Assembly: GCA_036272915.1 (NCBI GenBank)
Contig: DATAXV010000112.1
Location: 22,510 to 86,509, forward strand
Direction: 5' to 3'
Source of the DNA: Candidatus Dormiibacterota bacterium
GTDB taxonomy: Bacteria; Chloroflexota; Dormibacteria; Dormibacterales; Dormibacteraceae
DNA: 64,000 nucleotides
In this document: positions 62,176-64,000 of the stretch, in pieces
How the letters are laid out: the number at the start of each line of letters is the position of its first letter
Numbering within the stretch: the stretch's first letter is position 1
Program-made: the position numbers and the translations under genes
The notes under the pieces: model-generated
What the model was told of the DNA's origin: nothing
What the model saw: only the letters and a program-made list of their open reading frames with translations
Databases searched by the model: none

Positions 62176-62968
62176 TCACTCCGAGCCGACCACCATCTCC
62201 CGCATCATCCGGCCGTTGCCGGACATGGGTCCCCCGTCGACTCCGAGCACGACGCCGGTGACTCAGGCGGCGTCATCGGAGGCGAGGAAGAGCCCCGGCC
62301 CGGCGACATCGTCCGACTCGCCACCCGGCCCCATCGGGCACCACTGCGCCATCCGCTCCATCACCTCCGGATCCCTCCGCTTCCGGCCCTCCCAGGCGGG
62401 GGTCCGGATGGTGCCGGGCGTGATCGCGTCGCAGCGCACTCCGCGAGGTCCCGTAGCGCACGGCGATCGAGTTGGTGAGGCTGATGACGCCACCTTGGCA
62501 GCGCTGTAGGCCTCATTCCCGGACATCGCCAGGCCGTTCACCGAGGTGATGTTGACGATCGAACACGAACCCTGGGCGACCATCGGCCGGAGGGCGCGCG
62601 GCAGCAGCCGTAGCCCCCGCCGCCCGGATCAACCGCCACCTCCTGCTCCCAGTCTTGGAGGCGATCCACCCGGCAGATGGCGGCGCCGTTGACGAGGACA
62701 TCGATCCGCCCGAATCGCTCGACCGTCCGCTCGACCATCGCCCCTGCTTCGTCAGGGCTGGCACACGTCGGCGGCGAACCCCTCGGCGCGACCGGGTTGT
62801 CCGGTGATCCCCGCCGCCACCTGGCCCGCCCTGTCGCCGTCCCAGTAGGCGACGAGCACGGCCGCCCCTTCGCCGGCGAGGCGGCGAGGCGGCGAAGGGG
62901 CGAACGATCACGCTGCCGATCCCGCTCGCGCCGCCCGTGACCACCACGCCTCTGTCCTTGAACCGCAT
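62176..62968 (-). pseudogene. multiply disrupted short-chain dehydrogenase/reductase gene
   Basis: SDR segments are spread over all three minus-strand frames: MRFKDRGVVVTGGASGIGS; LAGEGAAVLVAYWDGD...; DEAGAMVERTVERFGRIDVLVNGAAI; RPMVAQGSCSIVNITSVNG...YSAAK. There is also a TGA where the conserved Trp of ASDDAAWVTG is expected (62263-62265). Confidence 0.75.
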
Positions 62969-63032
62969 CTCCCGATCCTGGTGGCCGCTGGAGGTCACGC
63001 GGCCCTCCGGTGGTAGCATCTTCCCTAAGAAG

Positions 63033-63443
63033 ATGGCTTTTGCTCACAGCGAAACCCCTGAACACGTGCGGTCCACGCTAGGCGCGATCCTTCGCCGACA
63101 CCGGGAGGTCCGGGAACGCCGACTGGCTGAAGTCGCGGGTCCCGCCGGCATCTCCGTCGCCTTTCTCTCCGAGGTCGAGCGTGGGCGCAAGGAAATCTCG
63201 GTGGAGAAGCTCCTGGCCCTGTCCCGCGCGCTCGAGGTAACCATCGCCGACCTCTACCTGGAGCTGGCGCGCGAGCTCGGAGCGCGGGCCTCACTGCCCT
63301 CCTCGTGGGACGACAACCCGCGCGTGCACCTGGAAGCCGCCTGTCGCTCAATGGACCTCGACGCGCTGCGGACGGTGGCTCGCTTCTCCTCCTTCGTGGC
63401 GATGACCGAGCAGCCGCGAAGGCGGATCGGCTTCACGTCATGA
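63033..63443 (+). CDS. ClgR/PopR-like XRE-family HTH regulator
   Basis: LRRHREVRERRLAEVAGPAGISVAFLSEVERGRKEISVEKLLALSRALEVTIADL resembles the actinobacterial Clp gene regulator. Start at MAFAHSE (ATG 63033). Confidence 0.75.
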   Translation: MAFAHSETPEHVRSTLGAILRRHREVRERRLAEVAGPAGISVAFLSEVERGRKEISVEKLLALSRALEVTIADLYLELARELGARASLPSSWDDNPRVHLEAACRSMDLDALRTVARFSSFVAMTEQPRRRIGFTS

Positions 63444-64000
63444 GCCTCGGCCGGCCTCCGTTCCCAGGAGGCGACATCCATTCCCGGCTTCTGCAGGACC
63501 GGATCGTCATGCTCGGTCCTCCCCTGGACGCGGAGGCCGCCGCTGCCGTGGTCGGTCAGCTGCTCCTGCTCGAGGCCAGGAAGCCCGGAAAGGACATCGG
63601 CCTCTACGTCAACAGCGCCGGCGGACCGCTGGACGCGGCCCTCGGCGTCTACGACGTGATGCAGTCGATCGACTCCGACGTCTGCACGCTCTGCACCGGC
63701 CAGGCCGCCGGCACCGCCGCCATGCTCCTCGCCGCTGGTGCGCCCGGCAAGCGGATGGCGCTGGCGCACGCCCGGATCGTACTTCAGCAGCCGTCGTCAG
63801 GCCCGATCGAGGGCCGCGCCAGCCAGGTCGCGGTGCTCGCCCACGAGCTCCTTCGCGGGCGGGATCGCCTGATCGAGATCCTCTCCCAGCATTGCGGCAG
63901 GCACAGAGAGCAGGTCGAGGGCGAGCTCGAGCGCGAATACCACATGACACCCGAGCAGGCCGTCGCCTGGGGCGTGATCGACGGCATAGCCGGCCGCAAT
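63440..64000 (+). CDS. ClpP-family protein with a substituted catalytic triad (ClpR-like); 3' end at or beyond the window edge
   Basis: The ATG overlaps the upstream stop (ATGA). It is collinear with ClpP: RIVMLGPPLD, DIGLYVNSAGG, YDVMQSI. However it reads GQAAGTAAMLL instead of GQAASMG, IVLQQP instead of IMIHQP, and LEREYHM instead of TERDRF. This ORF is absent from the supplied track because no stop lies inside the window. Confidence 0.85.
   Translation, partial: MSLGRPPFPGGDIHSRLLQDRIVMLGPPLDAEAAAAVVGQLLLLEARKPGKDIGLYVNSAGGPLDAALGVYDVMQSIDSDVCTLCTGQAAGTAAMLLAAGAPGKRMALAHARIVLQQPSSGPIEGRASQVAVLAHELLRGRDRLIEILSQHCGRHREQVEGELEREYHMTPEQAVAWGVIDGIAGRN

What the first reader, a model, noticed from the sequence alone, without database searches (positions are those of the whole stretch)
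63033..64000. ClgR-like regulator translationally coupled to a ClpP homologue lacking the Ser-His-Asp triad
The ClpP-like ORF is collinear with E. coli ClpP over its whole length. However, the nucleophile Ser is Gly (GQAAGTAAM, codon 63710-63712), the His is Gln (IVLQQP, codon 63785-63787) and the Asp is Glu (LEREYH, codon 63935-63937). Triad-less ClpP paralogues (ClpR) are established in cyanobacteria and plastids as non-catalytic ring subunits. I do not know of them as a standard feature of actinobacteria-like genomes. The gene overlaps (ATGA) an XRE regulator strongly resembling ClgR/PopR (FLSEVERGRKEISVEKLL). This echoes the Streptomyces popR-clpP3P4 arrangement, but with a dead protease. 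Possible roles include a regulatory or decoy ring subunit, a ClpX/ClpC adaptor sink, or part of a larger unit continuing past the window edge.
Basis: partly seen in the sequence, partly recalled or inferred. Interest (0 to 1): 0.6.

Follow-up and report, generated by a model that had tools for sequence, protein, structure and literature searches.

The report
Dead ClpP subunit with IGF-tailed regulator
An uncultured soil bacterium (phylum Dormibacterota) has an operon that encodes a ClgR-like regulator, a ClpP protease subunit that has lost its catalytic residues but is still kept by selection, and a working ClpP. This is an independent, regulator-linked origin of the "ClpR-type" dead protease subunit, and the regulator carries the same IGF peptide that Clp motors use to dock on ClpP.

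Summary
An XRE gene (63033-63443) overlaps by ATGA a 187-aa ClpP homologue (63440-64003) that has Gly, Gln and Glu at the Ser-His-Asp positions.

The genome is a Candidatus Dormibacterota MAG, not an actinobacterium. Eleven bases past the dead gene's stop, just beyond the window end, lies a third gene: an intact ClpP of another orthogroup ("t4").

The regulator-clpP pair is phylum-wide. About 90 orthologues ("t3") are all Ser-His-Asp. Six lineages carry the dead form: this genome and five sets of metagenome contigs.
- The five lineages placed in a tree form one clade nested in t3, with active sisters.
- All six share Ser>Gly, His>Gln and a lost N-terminal axial loop.
- Five of the six have t4 directly downstream.

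Selection still acts on the gene. dN/dS is 0.24 (95% CI 0.15-0.36), differences favour third codon positions, and there are no indels.

Best reading: a ClpR-like non-catalytic partner of the downstream ClpP. Triad-less ClpPs are already reported in cyanobacteria, plastids, Actinoplanes and Streptomyces, so this is a new variant of a known kind.

The more novel point is that every regulator of this family ends in a disordered tail with an invariant IGF tripeptide, like the ClpX docking loop. This suggests direct regulator-ClpP contact, which remains untested.

The parts
63014..63019 (+). -10-like hexamer TAGCAT of the operon promoter
   Evidence: A TAnnnT hexamer stands at -19..-14 from the regulator's ATG in 87 distinct orthologous upstream regions. 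It lies in the only alignable stretch between this genome and its 80% relative in otherwise unalignable intergenic DNA. It implies a leader of only about 6 nt (inference).
63017..63035 (.). Perfect 7-bp dyad CATCTTC-N5-GAAGATG overlapping the -10 hexamer, the likely transcription start and the ATG; candidate autoregulatory operator
   Evidence: Seen. It is unique in the 5-Mb genome. Across the family there is a conserved T(T/C)GC(C/T) box at -13..-9 and a weak dyad centred at -7: 3.49 of 7 complementary pairs against 3.12 +/- 0.08 in column shuffles. It is not the published ClgR box. Function is inferred.
63033..63443 (+). ClgR-like XRE-family regulator, 136 aa
   Evidence: Pfam HTH_31/HTH_3. 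Best NCBIfam hit is ClgR at 55 bits, below the 170-bit cut-off. AF2 model has pLDDT 97 for residues 9-81. Foldseek best matches are the M. smegmatis XRE 5woq, C. glutamicum ClgR 3f51 and DdrO.
63318..63407 (+). C-terminal helical hairpin of the regulator (residues 96-125), specific to this family
   Evidence: AF2 helices 96-106 and 109-125, pLDDT about 82-86. Conserved L100, L107, L112, A116 and F118.
63426..63434 (+). Codons for the invariant Ile132-Gly133-Phe134 in the disordered C-terminal tail (RRRIGFTS)
   Evidence: I132, G133 and F134 are invariant in alignments of 15 and 56 orthologues. They are present in every full-length cluster representative read (10 of 10) from a scan of 1.84 billion representatives. 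Tail pLDDT is 46-69. The genome's own ClpX docking loop reads RRLIGFSS.
63440..64000 (+). Catalytically dead ClpP paralogue (187 aa; stop at 64001-64003, just outside the window)
   Evidence: Pfam CLP_protease 5.3e-55. AF2 pLDDT 90.9, pTM 0.85, residues 1-10 disordered. Nested in the regulator-linked ClpP clade. dN/dS 0.24.
63440..63475 (+). Degenerate, shortened N-terminus (MSLGRPPFPGGD) replacing the axial gating and unfoldase-contact loop
   Evidence: Conserved P4, V6, R12, G13, E14, R15, Y17 and Y20 (E. coli mature numbering) of active orthologues are absent or replaced. The same region is deleted or degenerate in the other dead lineages.
63710..63712 (+). Gly91 codon (GGC) at the nucleophile Ser position
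   Evidence: Gly in all six dead lineages. Ser in 90 of 90 active orthologues.
63785..63787 (+). Gln116 codon (CAG) at the catalytic His position
   Evidence: LQQPS is invariant in the dead clade. His in 90 of 90 active orthologues.
63935..63937 (+). Glu166 codon (GAA) at the catalytic Asp position
   Evidence: Specific to this genome; the five other dead lineages keep Asp.

Best explanation
Window 63033-64000 holds the first two genes of a three-gene operon in a Candidatus Dormibacterota genome. The genes are a ClgR-like XRE regulator, a catalytically dead ClpP, and an intact ClpP of a different orthogroup (t4, C112:86524-87186, just past the window).

The dead gene is a real pseudo-protease kept by selection (ClpR-like in function). 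It arose once from the phylum's own regulator-linked ClpP (t3). That lineage lost the N-terminal axial loops, the Ser and His of the triad, residues of the substrate or handle strand, and one aromatic residue of the unfoldase-docking pocket. It kept the ClpP fold and the Glu-Arg ring-ring sensor.

Most likely (inferred) it assembles with the co-transcribed active t4 ClpP as a non-cutting ring or as subunits that do not dock unfoldases. The core would then have fewer active sites and only the t4 face available to ClpX or ClpC.

The regulator probably autoregulates the operon from a dyad that overlaps the -10 hexamer and the start codon (inferred). Its invariant C-terminal IGF tail may contact a ClpP docking pocket (hypothesis).
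For: Shown:
- Fold and dead triad.
- Operon layout with ATGA coupling, an 11-nt gap and GGAGGTGA before the intact clpP, and no internal terminator.
- The genome has four ClpP genes plus a weak partial Pfam hit, and also ClpX, ClpC and two ClpC/A-like ATPases with (I/L)GF loops.
- 76 of 76 complete regulator-linked ClpPs from other species are Ser-His-Asp with full N-termini and no second clpP within 2.5 kb.
- Six dead lineages share S>G and H>Q. The five in the tree form one clade (SH-aLRT 100) inside t3 (97). The regulator tree agrees.
- Five of the six have t4 directly downstream, and for the three lineages whose t4 gene is in the tree the t4 branching matches the dead subtree.
- Purifying selection: dN/dS 0.236 (bootstrap 95% CI 0.146-0.360; neighbours 0.10-0.14); nucleotide differences 25/19/64 by codon position; no indel in 564 nt although the flanking intergenic DNA is unalignable.
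- 52 of 87 positions conserved in t3 are kept, including G68, Y62, E169 and R170.

Precedents: ClpR forms rings or mixed rings with active ClpP (PMC7966870). Actinoplanes ClpP3 is triad-less, lacks pocket aromatics and has a disordered N-terminus (PMC13689560). Streptomyces ClpP1P2 is asymmetric (PMC9765437).
Against: - No direct evidence of assembly with t4 or any other ClpP.
- One dead lineage (L154) has no t4 immediately downstream.
- t4 exists without any dead partner in three related genera, so t4 does not need it.
- The dead protein evolves much faster than its neighbours: stem branches of 1.7-3.9 substitutions per site, and 80% identity against 94% for t4 in the same species pair. That also fits relaxed constraint.
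Confidence: 0.55

Rival explanations
1. The dead ClpP does not build the protease core. It is a regulatory partner of the XRE regulator: a ClpP-derived receptor or sink that binds the regulator's IGF tail (or the regulator as a whole). Regulator activity would then report the state of the Clp system.
For: - The regulator and the dead ClpP have overlapping stop and start codons in all six lineages.
- The IGF tail is invariant and disordered.
- Pocket residues L23, L48, Y62 and L114 are kept.
- An analogous XRE + dead ClpP coupling has evolved separately in Acidimicrobiales beside a 74%-identical t4-type ClpP.
- Ser at pocket position 82 is invariant across the dead clade, which suggests a new constraint rather than drift.
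Against: - The pocket is altered exactly where active orthologues are conserved: Tyr82>Ser in all lineages, plus Phe49>Leu/Arg and Val/Ile189>Ala in this genome.
- The IGF tail long predates the dead clade. It is equally conserved where the adjacent ClpP is active, so it was not evolved for the dead subunit.
Confidence: 0.17
2. It is a redundant copy on its way to loss. After t4 arrived downstream, the resident t3 ClpP became dispensable and is decaying slowly. The open frame persists partly by chance and partly because it carries the translational coupling and the ribosome-binding site for t4.
For: - Very long branches and a two-fold higher dN/dS than the neighbours.
- Related genera have regulator-t4 with no t3 at all, which could be the end-point after deletion.
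- Neutral simulation leaves the frame open in 24% of trials at this divergence.
- A heavily frameshifted SDR gene lies next door, so decay does occur in this genome.
Against: - Six lineages that have diverged to about 53% protein identity all keep an intact frame of 179-189 aa, with 68 invariant columns in five of them.
- dN/dS 0.24 never approached 1 in 500 bootstraps.
- Third-position excess (25/19/64) and no indels.
- The AF2 model is confident, pLDDT 91.
- The regulators linked to t4 alone are a more distant lineage (46-51% identity), not derived from the dead clade.
Confidence: 0.12
3. It is a negative regulator: it co-assembles with active ClpP subunits (t4, or the housekeeping t1/t2) to lower or switch off proteolysis under conditions set by the regulator.
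For: - Ring-ring sensor residues E169 and R170 and most core positions are retained.
- The gene is placed under a dedicated stress-type regulator.
- Partial deactivation changes ClpXP behaviour in Listeria ClpP1/2 (PMC5361862, abstract listed).
Against: Sequence alone cannot separate this from the structural-partner reading. Constant co-transcription with t4 makes a pure inhibitor seem wasteful.
Confidence: 0.1
4. The triad substitutions are sequencing or assembly errors, or the protein is still a peptidase that uses other residues.
For: The MAG has 242 contigs and a frameshifted neighbour gene.
Against: - The same Gly and Gln occur in five other lineages from independent samples.
- Gly and Gln cannot act as nucleophile and general base.
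- The neighbouring oxyanion and substrate-strand residues are changed as well.
Confidence: 0.02

Closest known systems
ClpR of cyanobacteria, plastids and apicoplasts (for example the Synechococcus ClpP3/ClpR core and P. falciparum ClpR)
   Same: A ClpP homologue with the full fold but no catalytic triad, kept by selection and encoded alongside an active ClpP with which it is expected to build the core (PMC7966870).
   Different: Independent origin: it nests among active Dormibacterota ClpPs. It has lost the N-terminal axial loop. It is translationally coupled to a dedicated XRE regulator. Assembly is untested.
Actinoplanes missouriensis ClpP3, and Streptomyces SCO7280, SGR6291 and Sven0839 (triad-less ClpPs of actinomycetes; PMC13689560, J Bacteriol 2026)
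   Same: Non-cyanobacterial, triad-less ClpP paralogues in multi-ClpP genomes. ClpP3 also lacks pocket aromatics and has a disordered N-terminus. Its authors call it an inactive ClpR-type subunit.
   Different: Different phylum and a separate origin. Here Tyr62 is retained, the gene sits between a regulator and an active clpP, and the substitutions are Gly and Gln.
Streptomyces popR-clpP3-clpP4, and ClgR regulons of Actinobacteria
   Same: A ClgR-type HTH regulator placed next to a pair of accessory clpP genes. The HTH domain is 41% identical to the C. glutamicum ClgR structure.
   Different: - By my own recall of the Streptomyces work (not checked here), both Streptomyces ClpPs have triads.
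- ClgR and PopR carry a C-terminal Ala-Ala degron (also my own recall). This regulator has an extra helical hairpin and an IGF tail.
- It scores below the ClgR equivalog cut-off.
- The operator is not the ClgR box.
Acidimicrobiia cassette of XRE + dead ClpP (4-nt overlap) divergent from an active ClpP
   Same: - The active partner is the same t4-type ClpP: 74% identity, with the same GMGMSAAAM, IMIHQGSAG and VP(K/R)RGL features.
- An XRE gene is translationally coupled to a dead ClpP.
   Different: - The dead subunits are only 32% identical and of separate origin.
- The Acidimicrobiales XRE is 89 aa and has no IGF tail.
- The genes are divergent, not co-directional.
- The LGF tail that earlier notes report on the dead copy was not seen in the six loci read here.
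Asymmetric two-paralogue ClpP cores (M. tuberculosis and Streptomyces ClpP1P2, Listeria ClpP1/2)
   Same: Two co-transcribed ClpP paralogues with a division of labour; only one ring docks the unfoldase (PMC9765437; PMC4416901, listed).
   Different: In those cores both paralogues keep a triad. Here one paralogue lacks both catalysis and the docking features.

Membership tests
ClpP family (Pfam PF00574 / MEROPS S14) | ClpP fold and full-length collinearity | tested here: met
   Pfam E=5.3e-55 over profile positions 8-180 of 182. PDB ClpP E=1.9e-52. AF2 pLDDT 90.9, pTM 0.85.
ClpP family (Pfam PF00574 / MEROPS S14) | Ser-His-Asp catalytic triad | tested here: not met
   Gly91, Gln116 and Glu166 at the aligned positions. 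All NCBIfam ClpP models score below their cut-offs. It is therefore a non-peptidase homologue.
ClpP family (Pfam PF00574 / MEROPS S14) | N-terminal axial loop and hydrophobic pocket for unfoldase docking | tested here: not met
   The N-terminal loop residues are lost. Pocket changes are Tyr82>Ser (clade-wide), Phe49>Leu and Val/Ile189>Ala. Y62, L23, L48 and L114 are kept.
ClpR (functional class: non-catalytic ClpP paralogue) | ClpP homologue lacking the triad yet maintained by selection | tested here: met
   dN/dS 0.236, CI 0.146-0.360. Six intact lineages. Codon-position bias and no indels.
ClpR (functional class: non-catalytic ClpP paralogue) | Assembles with active ClpP into the tetradecameric core | not testable with these tools
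   Only indirect evidence: the same operon as an active ClpP and retained E169/R170 ring-ring sensor.
ClpR (cyanobacterial/plastid clade) | Descent from the cyanobacterial ClpR lineage | tested here: not met
   It nests inside the Dormibacterota regulator-linked ClpP clade, with triad-bearing sisters (SH-aLRT 97-100). Cyanobacterial sequences were not put in the tree.
ClgR (NCBIfam NF041677 equivalog) | Score above the curated cut-off | tested here: not met
   55 bits against a cut-off of 170, although ClgR is the best-scoring family.
ClgR (NCBIfam NF041677 equivalog) | ClgR-type HTH domain | tested here: met
   Foldseek against ClgR 3f51: 41% identity, rmsd 0.9 A over 71 residues, E=3e-5.
ClgR/PopR | C-terminal Ala-Ala degron for Clp-dependent turnover (this feature is from my own recall of the Streptomyces work) | tested here: not met
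   It ends ...RRRIGFTS. Orthologues end (R/K)xIGF plus 2-12 residues.
ClgR/PopR | Binds a ClgR box and controls clp genes | tested here: inconclusive
   The family's conserved upstream element is TAnnnT-T(T/C)GC(C/T) with a weak dyad. Only the left half resembles the (T)TCGC half-site. The genome scan with the local dyad was uninformative.
Acidimicrobiia XRE + dead ClpP + ClpP cassette (scan notes) | t4-type active ClpP partner | tested here: met
   74% identity over 196 residues to the partner in an Acidimicrobiales MAG.
Acidimicrobiia XRE + dead ClpP + ClpP cassette (scan notes) | Orthologous dead ClpP and XRE | tested here: not met
   The dead subunits are 32% identical, against 52-56% to Dormibacterota t3. 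The XRE there is 89 aa and has no IGF tail.

The most novel reading that the evidence does not exclude
The regulator's invariant, disordered C-terminal (R/K)x-IGF tail mimics the ClpX/ClpC docking loop and inserts into the hydrophobic pocket of the ClpP encoded next to it. On this reading, a transcription factor reads free, unfoldase-unoccupied ClpP directly (by sequestration, gate opening or self-delivery), which closes a protein-level feedback loop on clpP transcription. In this lineage the loop would have been rewired around a dead ClpP plus a t4 ClpP. This parallels the C-terminal HbYX tails that dock activators on proteasomes (my own comparison, not checked here).
Probability: 0.3. Interest if true: 0.8.

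Novelty: new variant of a known kind. Interest (0 to 1): 0.55.

Why it matters
ClpP is a central bacterial protease and an antibiotic target. How cells build and control multi-paralogue ClpP cores is still open outside a few model organisms.

This locus offers a natural before-and-after series in one phylum:
- an active regulator-linked ClpP;
- an N-terminally truncated but still catalytic form (L017);
- a dead form, always linked to the same regulator and usually to the same active partner type.

The series can show which ClpP surfaces matter once catalysis is gone. It adds a third independent bacterial origin of ClpR-like subunits, and links it to a t4-type ClpP that also pairs with unrelated dead ClpPs in Acidimicrobiales. 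This hints that this ClpP type tends to work with a blank partner.

If the IGF tail of the regulator does dock on ClpP, it would be the first transcription factor found to use the unfoldase docking motif. It would also give a simple, testable mechanism for sensing protease capacity.

Tried and rejected
- ClgR-box search: the family's conserved upstream element shares only a TTCGC-like half-site with the ClgR box. The dyad symmetry is weak across the family. Scanning the genome with the local dyad at up to 2 mismatches gave 217 mostly meaningless hits, and the exact site is unique, so no regulon could be defined.
- The terminator-like call on the dyad was rejected. It sits at the gene start, and its T-run is the Phe codon of the conserved M-x-F-A N-terminus.
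- A dN/dS baseline from random t3 pairs was abandoned. NG86 dS saturates and gives a bimodal, inflated omega, so neighbouring genes of the same species pair served as baseline instead.
- Neutral open-frame simulation alone was not decisive (24% remain open).
- Single-sequence scans for more dead relatives found only the 80% orthologue. The other lineages came from following closer regulator and t4 homologues.
- Pattern scans with the dead-clade alignment found no further Dormibacterota members. They did hit unrelated triad-defective ClpP2-type genes of Actinobacteria.
- The LGF tail that earlier notes report on Acidimicrobiia dead ClpPs was looked for in six loci and not seen.
- A hidden degenerate ClpP partner in the genera that have regulator-t4 only was looked for and not found.
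Full report
**1. What is in the sequence**

The window is C112:22510-86509 of a 5.0-Mb, 70.7% G+C assembly of 242 contigs.

- ATG 63033 opens a 136-aa ORF with HTH_31/HTH_3 domains that ends at TGA 63441-63443.
- ATG 63440 overlaps that stop (ATGA) and opens a 187-aa ORF matching Pfam CLP_protease at E=5.3e-55 over nearly the whole profile.
- Its stop lies three bases beyond the window.
- Alignment to E. coli ClpP puts Gly91 (63710-63712, GGC) at the nucleophile Ser, Gln116 (63785-63787, CAG) at His and Glu166 (63935-63937, GAA) at Asp.

**2. What lies beyond the window**

- Eleven nucleotides after the stop, preceded by GGAGGTGA, starts a 220-aa ClpP with an intact triad (GMGMSAAAM, IMIHQG, DIDRDYF) and a C-terminal extension.
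- Split transketolase genes and ispH follow.
- No terminator-like site separates the three genes.
- The genome has two more intact ClpPs. One lies just upstream of the window on C112. The other lies on C229 between tig and clpX.
- It also has ClpX (docking loop RRLIGFSS), ClpC (LGF), two more ClpC/A-like ATPases (LGF, IGF) and ClpB.

**3. Which organism, and how general the module is**

Searching public genomes with an alignment of the regulator returned 150 relatives. Most of the 80 listed are titled Candidatus Dormibacterota or its older "Chloroflexi" label; a minority carry other phylum labels that I take to be bin mislabels. An earlier follow-up on the same genome reached the same assignment.

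- In 76 of 76 complete loci the regulator is followed at once by a ClpP that has Ser-His-Asp and a full N-terminus ((I/V)PTV..GRGERAYDI). None has a second clpP within 2.5 kb.
- Trees of all ClpPs from 24 family relatives (plus some of the same class) give four orthogroups:
  - t1, linked to tig;
  - t2;
  - t3, regulator-linked;
  - t4, regulator-linked in three genera, with the GMGMSAAAM motif.
- The dead protein belongs to t3 and its downstream neighbour to t4.

**4. The dead form is a clade, not an accident**

- An 80%-identical orthologue (P0002) lies on three contigs from three sequencing runs in the same regulator-dead-t4-tkt-tkt-ispH order. It has Gly and Gln but keeps Asp.
- Following closer regulator and t4 homologues found four more lineages: L158, L159/L160, L154 and L252. 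Each has a 179-189-aa ClpP overlapping the regulator's stop, with Ser>Gly, His>Gln, Asp kept, and a deleted or degenerate N-terminus.
- Three of these four are followed by t4 within 11-21 nt. L154 is not.
- The five sequences placed in a tree form one clade (SH-aLRT 100) inside t3 (97). Its nearest neighbours are a G020 ClpP and L017. L017 is a t3 protein that has already lost the N-terminal loop and overlaps its regulator's stop, but still has the triad.
- The regulator tree gives the same clade (support 86), with triad-bearing L155 and L157 as successive sisters.
- The regulator is not accelerated: the path from G000 to L158 is 0.30, against 5.35 for the dead ClpP.

A single loss followed by long retention is therefore the simplest history.

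**5. Selection**

Between this genome and the 80% relative:
- The dead gene has dN 0.131, dS 0.56 and omega 0.236 (bootstrap 95% CI 0.146-0.360, maximum 0.43). The regulator has omega 0.105, t4 0.112 and the transketolase halves 0.125-0.143.
- The 108 nucleotide differences fall 25/19/64 by codon position.
- There is no indel in 564 nt, whereas the upstream intergenic DNA cannot be aligned beyond the last 30 nt or so.
- Across five dead lineages at 52-80% identity, 68 columns are invariant, including LQQPS and the Gly at the Ser position.

Constraint is relaxed about two-fold but clearly present.

**6. What was lost and what was kept**

Of 87 positions that are at least 90% conserved in t3, 52 survive in both close dead sequences.

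The losses cluster in:
- the N-terminal axial loop (E. coli mature residues 4-20);
- the catalytic residues and their neighbours (P66, S/V69, P115);
- the handle or substrate strand (G127, Q129, Q131, D134);
- part of the unfoldase pocket: Tyr82>Ser in all six dead lineages, and Phe49>Leu/Arg and Val/Ile189>Ala in this genome and its close relative.

Kept are the oxyanion Gly68, pocket residues L23, L48, Y62 and L114, and the Glu169-Arg170 ring-ring sensor.

The AF2 model is confident (pLDDT 90.9) except for residues 1-10.

The pattern fits a folded, oligomerising subunit that neither cuts nor docks an unfoldase.

**7. The regulator**

- ClgR is its best NCBIfam hit, but at 55 bits it is far below the equivalog cut-off of 170.
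- The AF2 model has three parts: an HTH domain (residues 9-81, pLDDT 97), a helical hairpin (96-125) and a disordered tail (126-136).
- Foldseek puts the HTH domain closest to a mycobacterial XRE (5woq), C. glutamicum ClgR (41% identity, rmsd 0.9 A) and DdrO.
- The tail reads RRRIGFTS. Ile-Gly-Phe is invariant in alignments of 15 and 56 orthologues, preceded by basic residues and followed by 2-12 variable residues.
- A profile search of 1.84 billion representative proteins found only about 33 clusters at E<=1e-30. Every full-length one read (10 of 10) carries the IGF tail. One further top hit looks frame-shifted, and four remoter hits (three of them keeping the helical hairpin) lack the tail.
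- No paper in the searchable library describes a transcription factor with such a tail, or any Dormibacterota Clp system.

IGF/LGF is the tripeptide by which ClpX, ClpA and ClpC dock in the ClpP hydrophobic pocket (established knowledge, for example PMC8745299). Docking of the regulator on ClpP is a hypothesis from this resemblance, not a result.

**8. Promoter and operator**

- In 87 distinct upstream regions, a TAnnnT hexamer stands at -19..-14 from the ATG, followed by T(T/C)GC(C/T) at -13..-9.
- There is a weak dyad centred at -7: 3.49 of 7 complementary pairs against 3.12 +/- 0.08 after column shuffling.
- In this genome the dyad is perfect, CATCTTC-N5-GAAGATG (63017-63035). It is conserved in the 80% relative and unique in the genome.
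- Its position over the -10 hexamer, the start site and the ATG suggests autorepression and a near-leaderless mRNA. This is inference only.
- It is not the published ClgR box.

**9. The active partner and a parallel in another phylum**

- t4 has thousands of 70-83% identical relatives.
- One, in an Acidimicrobiales MAG, is 74% identical and shares the VP(K/R)RGL tail. It faces an 89-aa XRE gene that overlaps by 4 nt a 182-aa dead ClpP.
- That dead ClpP is only 32% identical to the one here.
- Earlier notes of this scan describe that Acidimicrobiia cassette many times.

So the same type of active ClpP is found beside independently derived dead ClpPs in two phyla, each coupled to an XRE gene.

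- The earlier claim that the Acidimicrobiia dead copy ends in LGF was not borne out in the six loci I read.
- t4 also occurs with its regulator and no dead partner in three Dormibacterota genera.

**10. Comparison with what is known**

- ClpR is defined as a ClpP homologue without the triad that joins active ClpP in the core (PMC7966870).
- A 2026 paper reports triad-less ClpP3 in Actinoplanes missouriensis. It has no pocket aromatics, a disordered N-terminus and a conditional phenotype. The paper also notes triad-less ClpPs in Streptomyces (PMC13689560).
- My pattern scans also hit ClpP2-type genes with defective triads in Acidimicrobiales MAGs and in metagenome contigs.

The dead subunit is therefore a new, independent variant of a known kind. 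It is not a member of the cyanobacterial ClpR clade, and the regulator is ClgR-like rather than ClgR.

**11. Verdict**

- Best explanation: a selected, non-catalytic ClpP partner in a regulator-dead ClpP-active ClpP operon. Confidence is 0.55 for the whole statement. I put the part "real, dead and maintained" at about 0.9; that figure is my own estimate.
- The main rivals are a regulatory receptor role, slow decay, and negative regulation.
- The most novel reading still open is direct docking of the IGF-tailed regulator on ClpP.

Noticed in passing
G000 contig C229:2397-2588 (minus strand), outside the window: A 63-aa stand-alone ORF with a ClpX-type zinc-ribbon (CSFCGK...YICSECV) sits between the tig-linked clpP and the full-length clpX. 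ClpX has its own zinc-binding domain (C229:1110-2381). It could be a duplicated ClpX N-domain acting as a competitor or adaptor.
   Followed up: no
L017:5001-5549 (JGI metagenome contig, locus of P0003): A regulator-linked ClpP that has already lost the N-terminal axial loop and overlaps the regulator's stop codon, but still has Ser-His-Asp. It is among the nearest neighbours of the dead clade in the tree and is a possible evolutionary intermediate.
   Followed up: partly
L181:2845-3579 and L191:2827-3579 (Acidimicrobiales MAGs); L245:1706-2827, L246 and L249 (metagenome contigs); L175 (Streptomyces galbus): ClpP2-type genes in clpP1-clpP2 operons with defective triads (S-Q-P, S-Q-A, G-Q-D, A-Q-D, S-Q-D, T-H-H). 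The four read from the start keep the full N-terminal loop, and three loci (L181, L191, L249) have a ClgR-like gene ending in Ala-Ala nearby. His>Gln recurs independently.
   Followed up: partly
L251:3130-4663 (Acidimicrobiales MAG GCA_035695125.1): An active ClpP 74% identical to this genome's t4 ClpP is divergently transcribed from an 89-aa XRE gene that overlaps a 182-aa dead ClpP. The intergenic region holds a GCTATC-N10-GATAGC palindrome. It is the same cassette that earlier notes of this scan describe.
   Followed up: partly
window 62176-63000, minus strand: The short-chain dehydrogenase gene upstream of the regulator is readable only by hopping between frames, so it is a pseudogene or carries assembly indels. 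An earlier first-reader note of this scan recorded the same thing.
   Followed up: no
L001:2600-2677 (= C112:87109-87186) and t4 orthologues: t4-type ClpPs share a conserved C-terminal extension that begins VP(K/R)RGL, in both Dormibacterota and Acidimicrobiales. Its function is unknown.
   Followed up: no
window 63033-63044 and orthologues: The regulator's invariant N-terminus M-x-F-A places a second TTCGC pentamer at +6..+10, 19 nt after the conserved T(T/C)GC(C/T) box at -13..-9. This could be a coding constraint or a second half-site.
   Followed up: no
L051 (G021:C35) and L071: In two relatives the regulator-linked ClpP is split over two overlapping frames. This is either a frameshift or an assembly error.
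   Followed up: no
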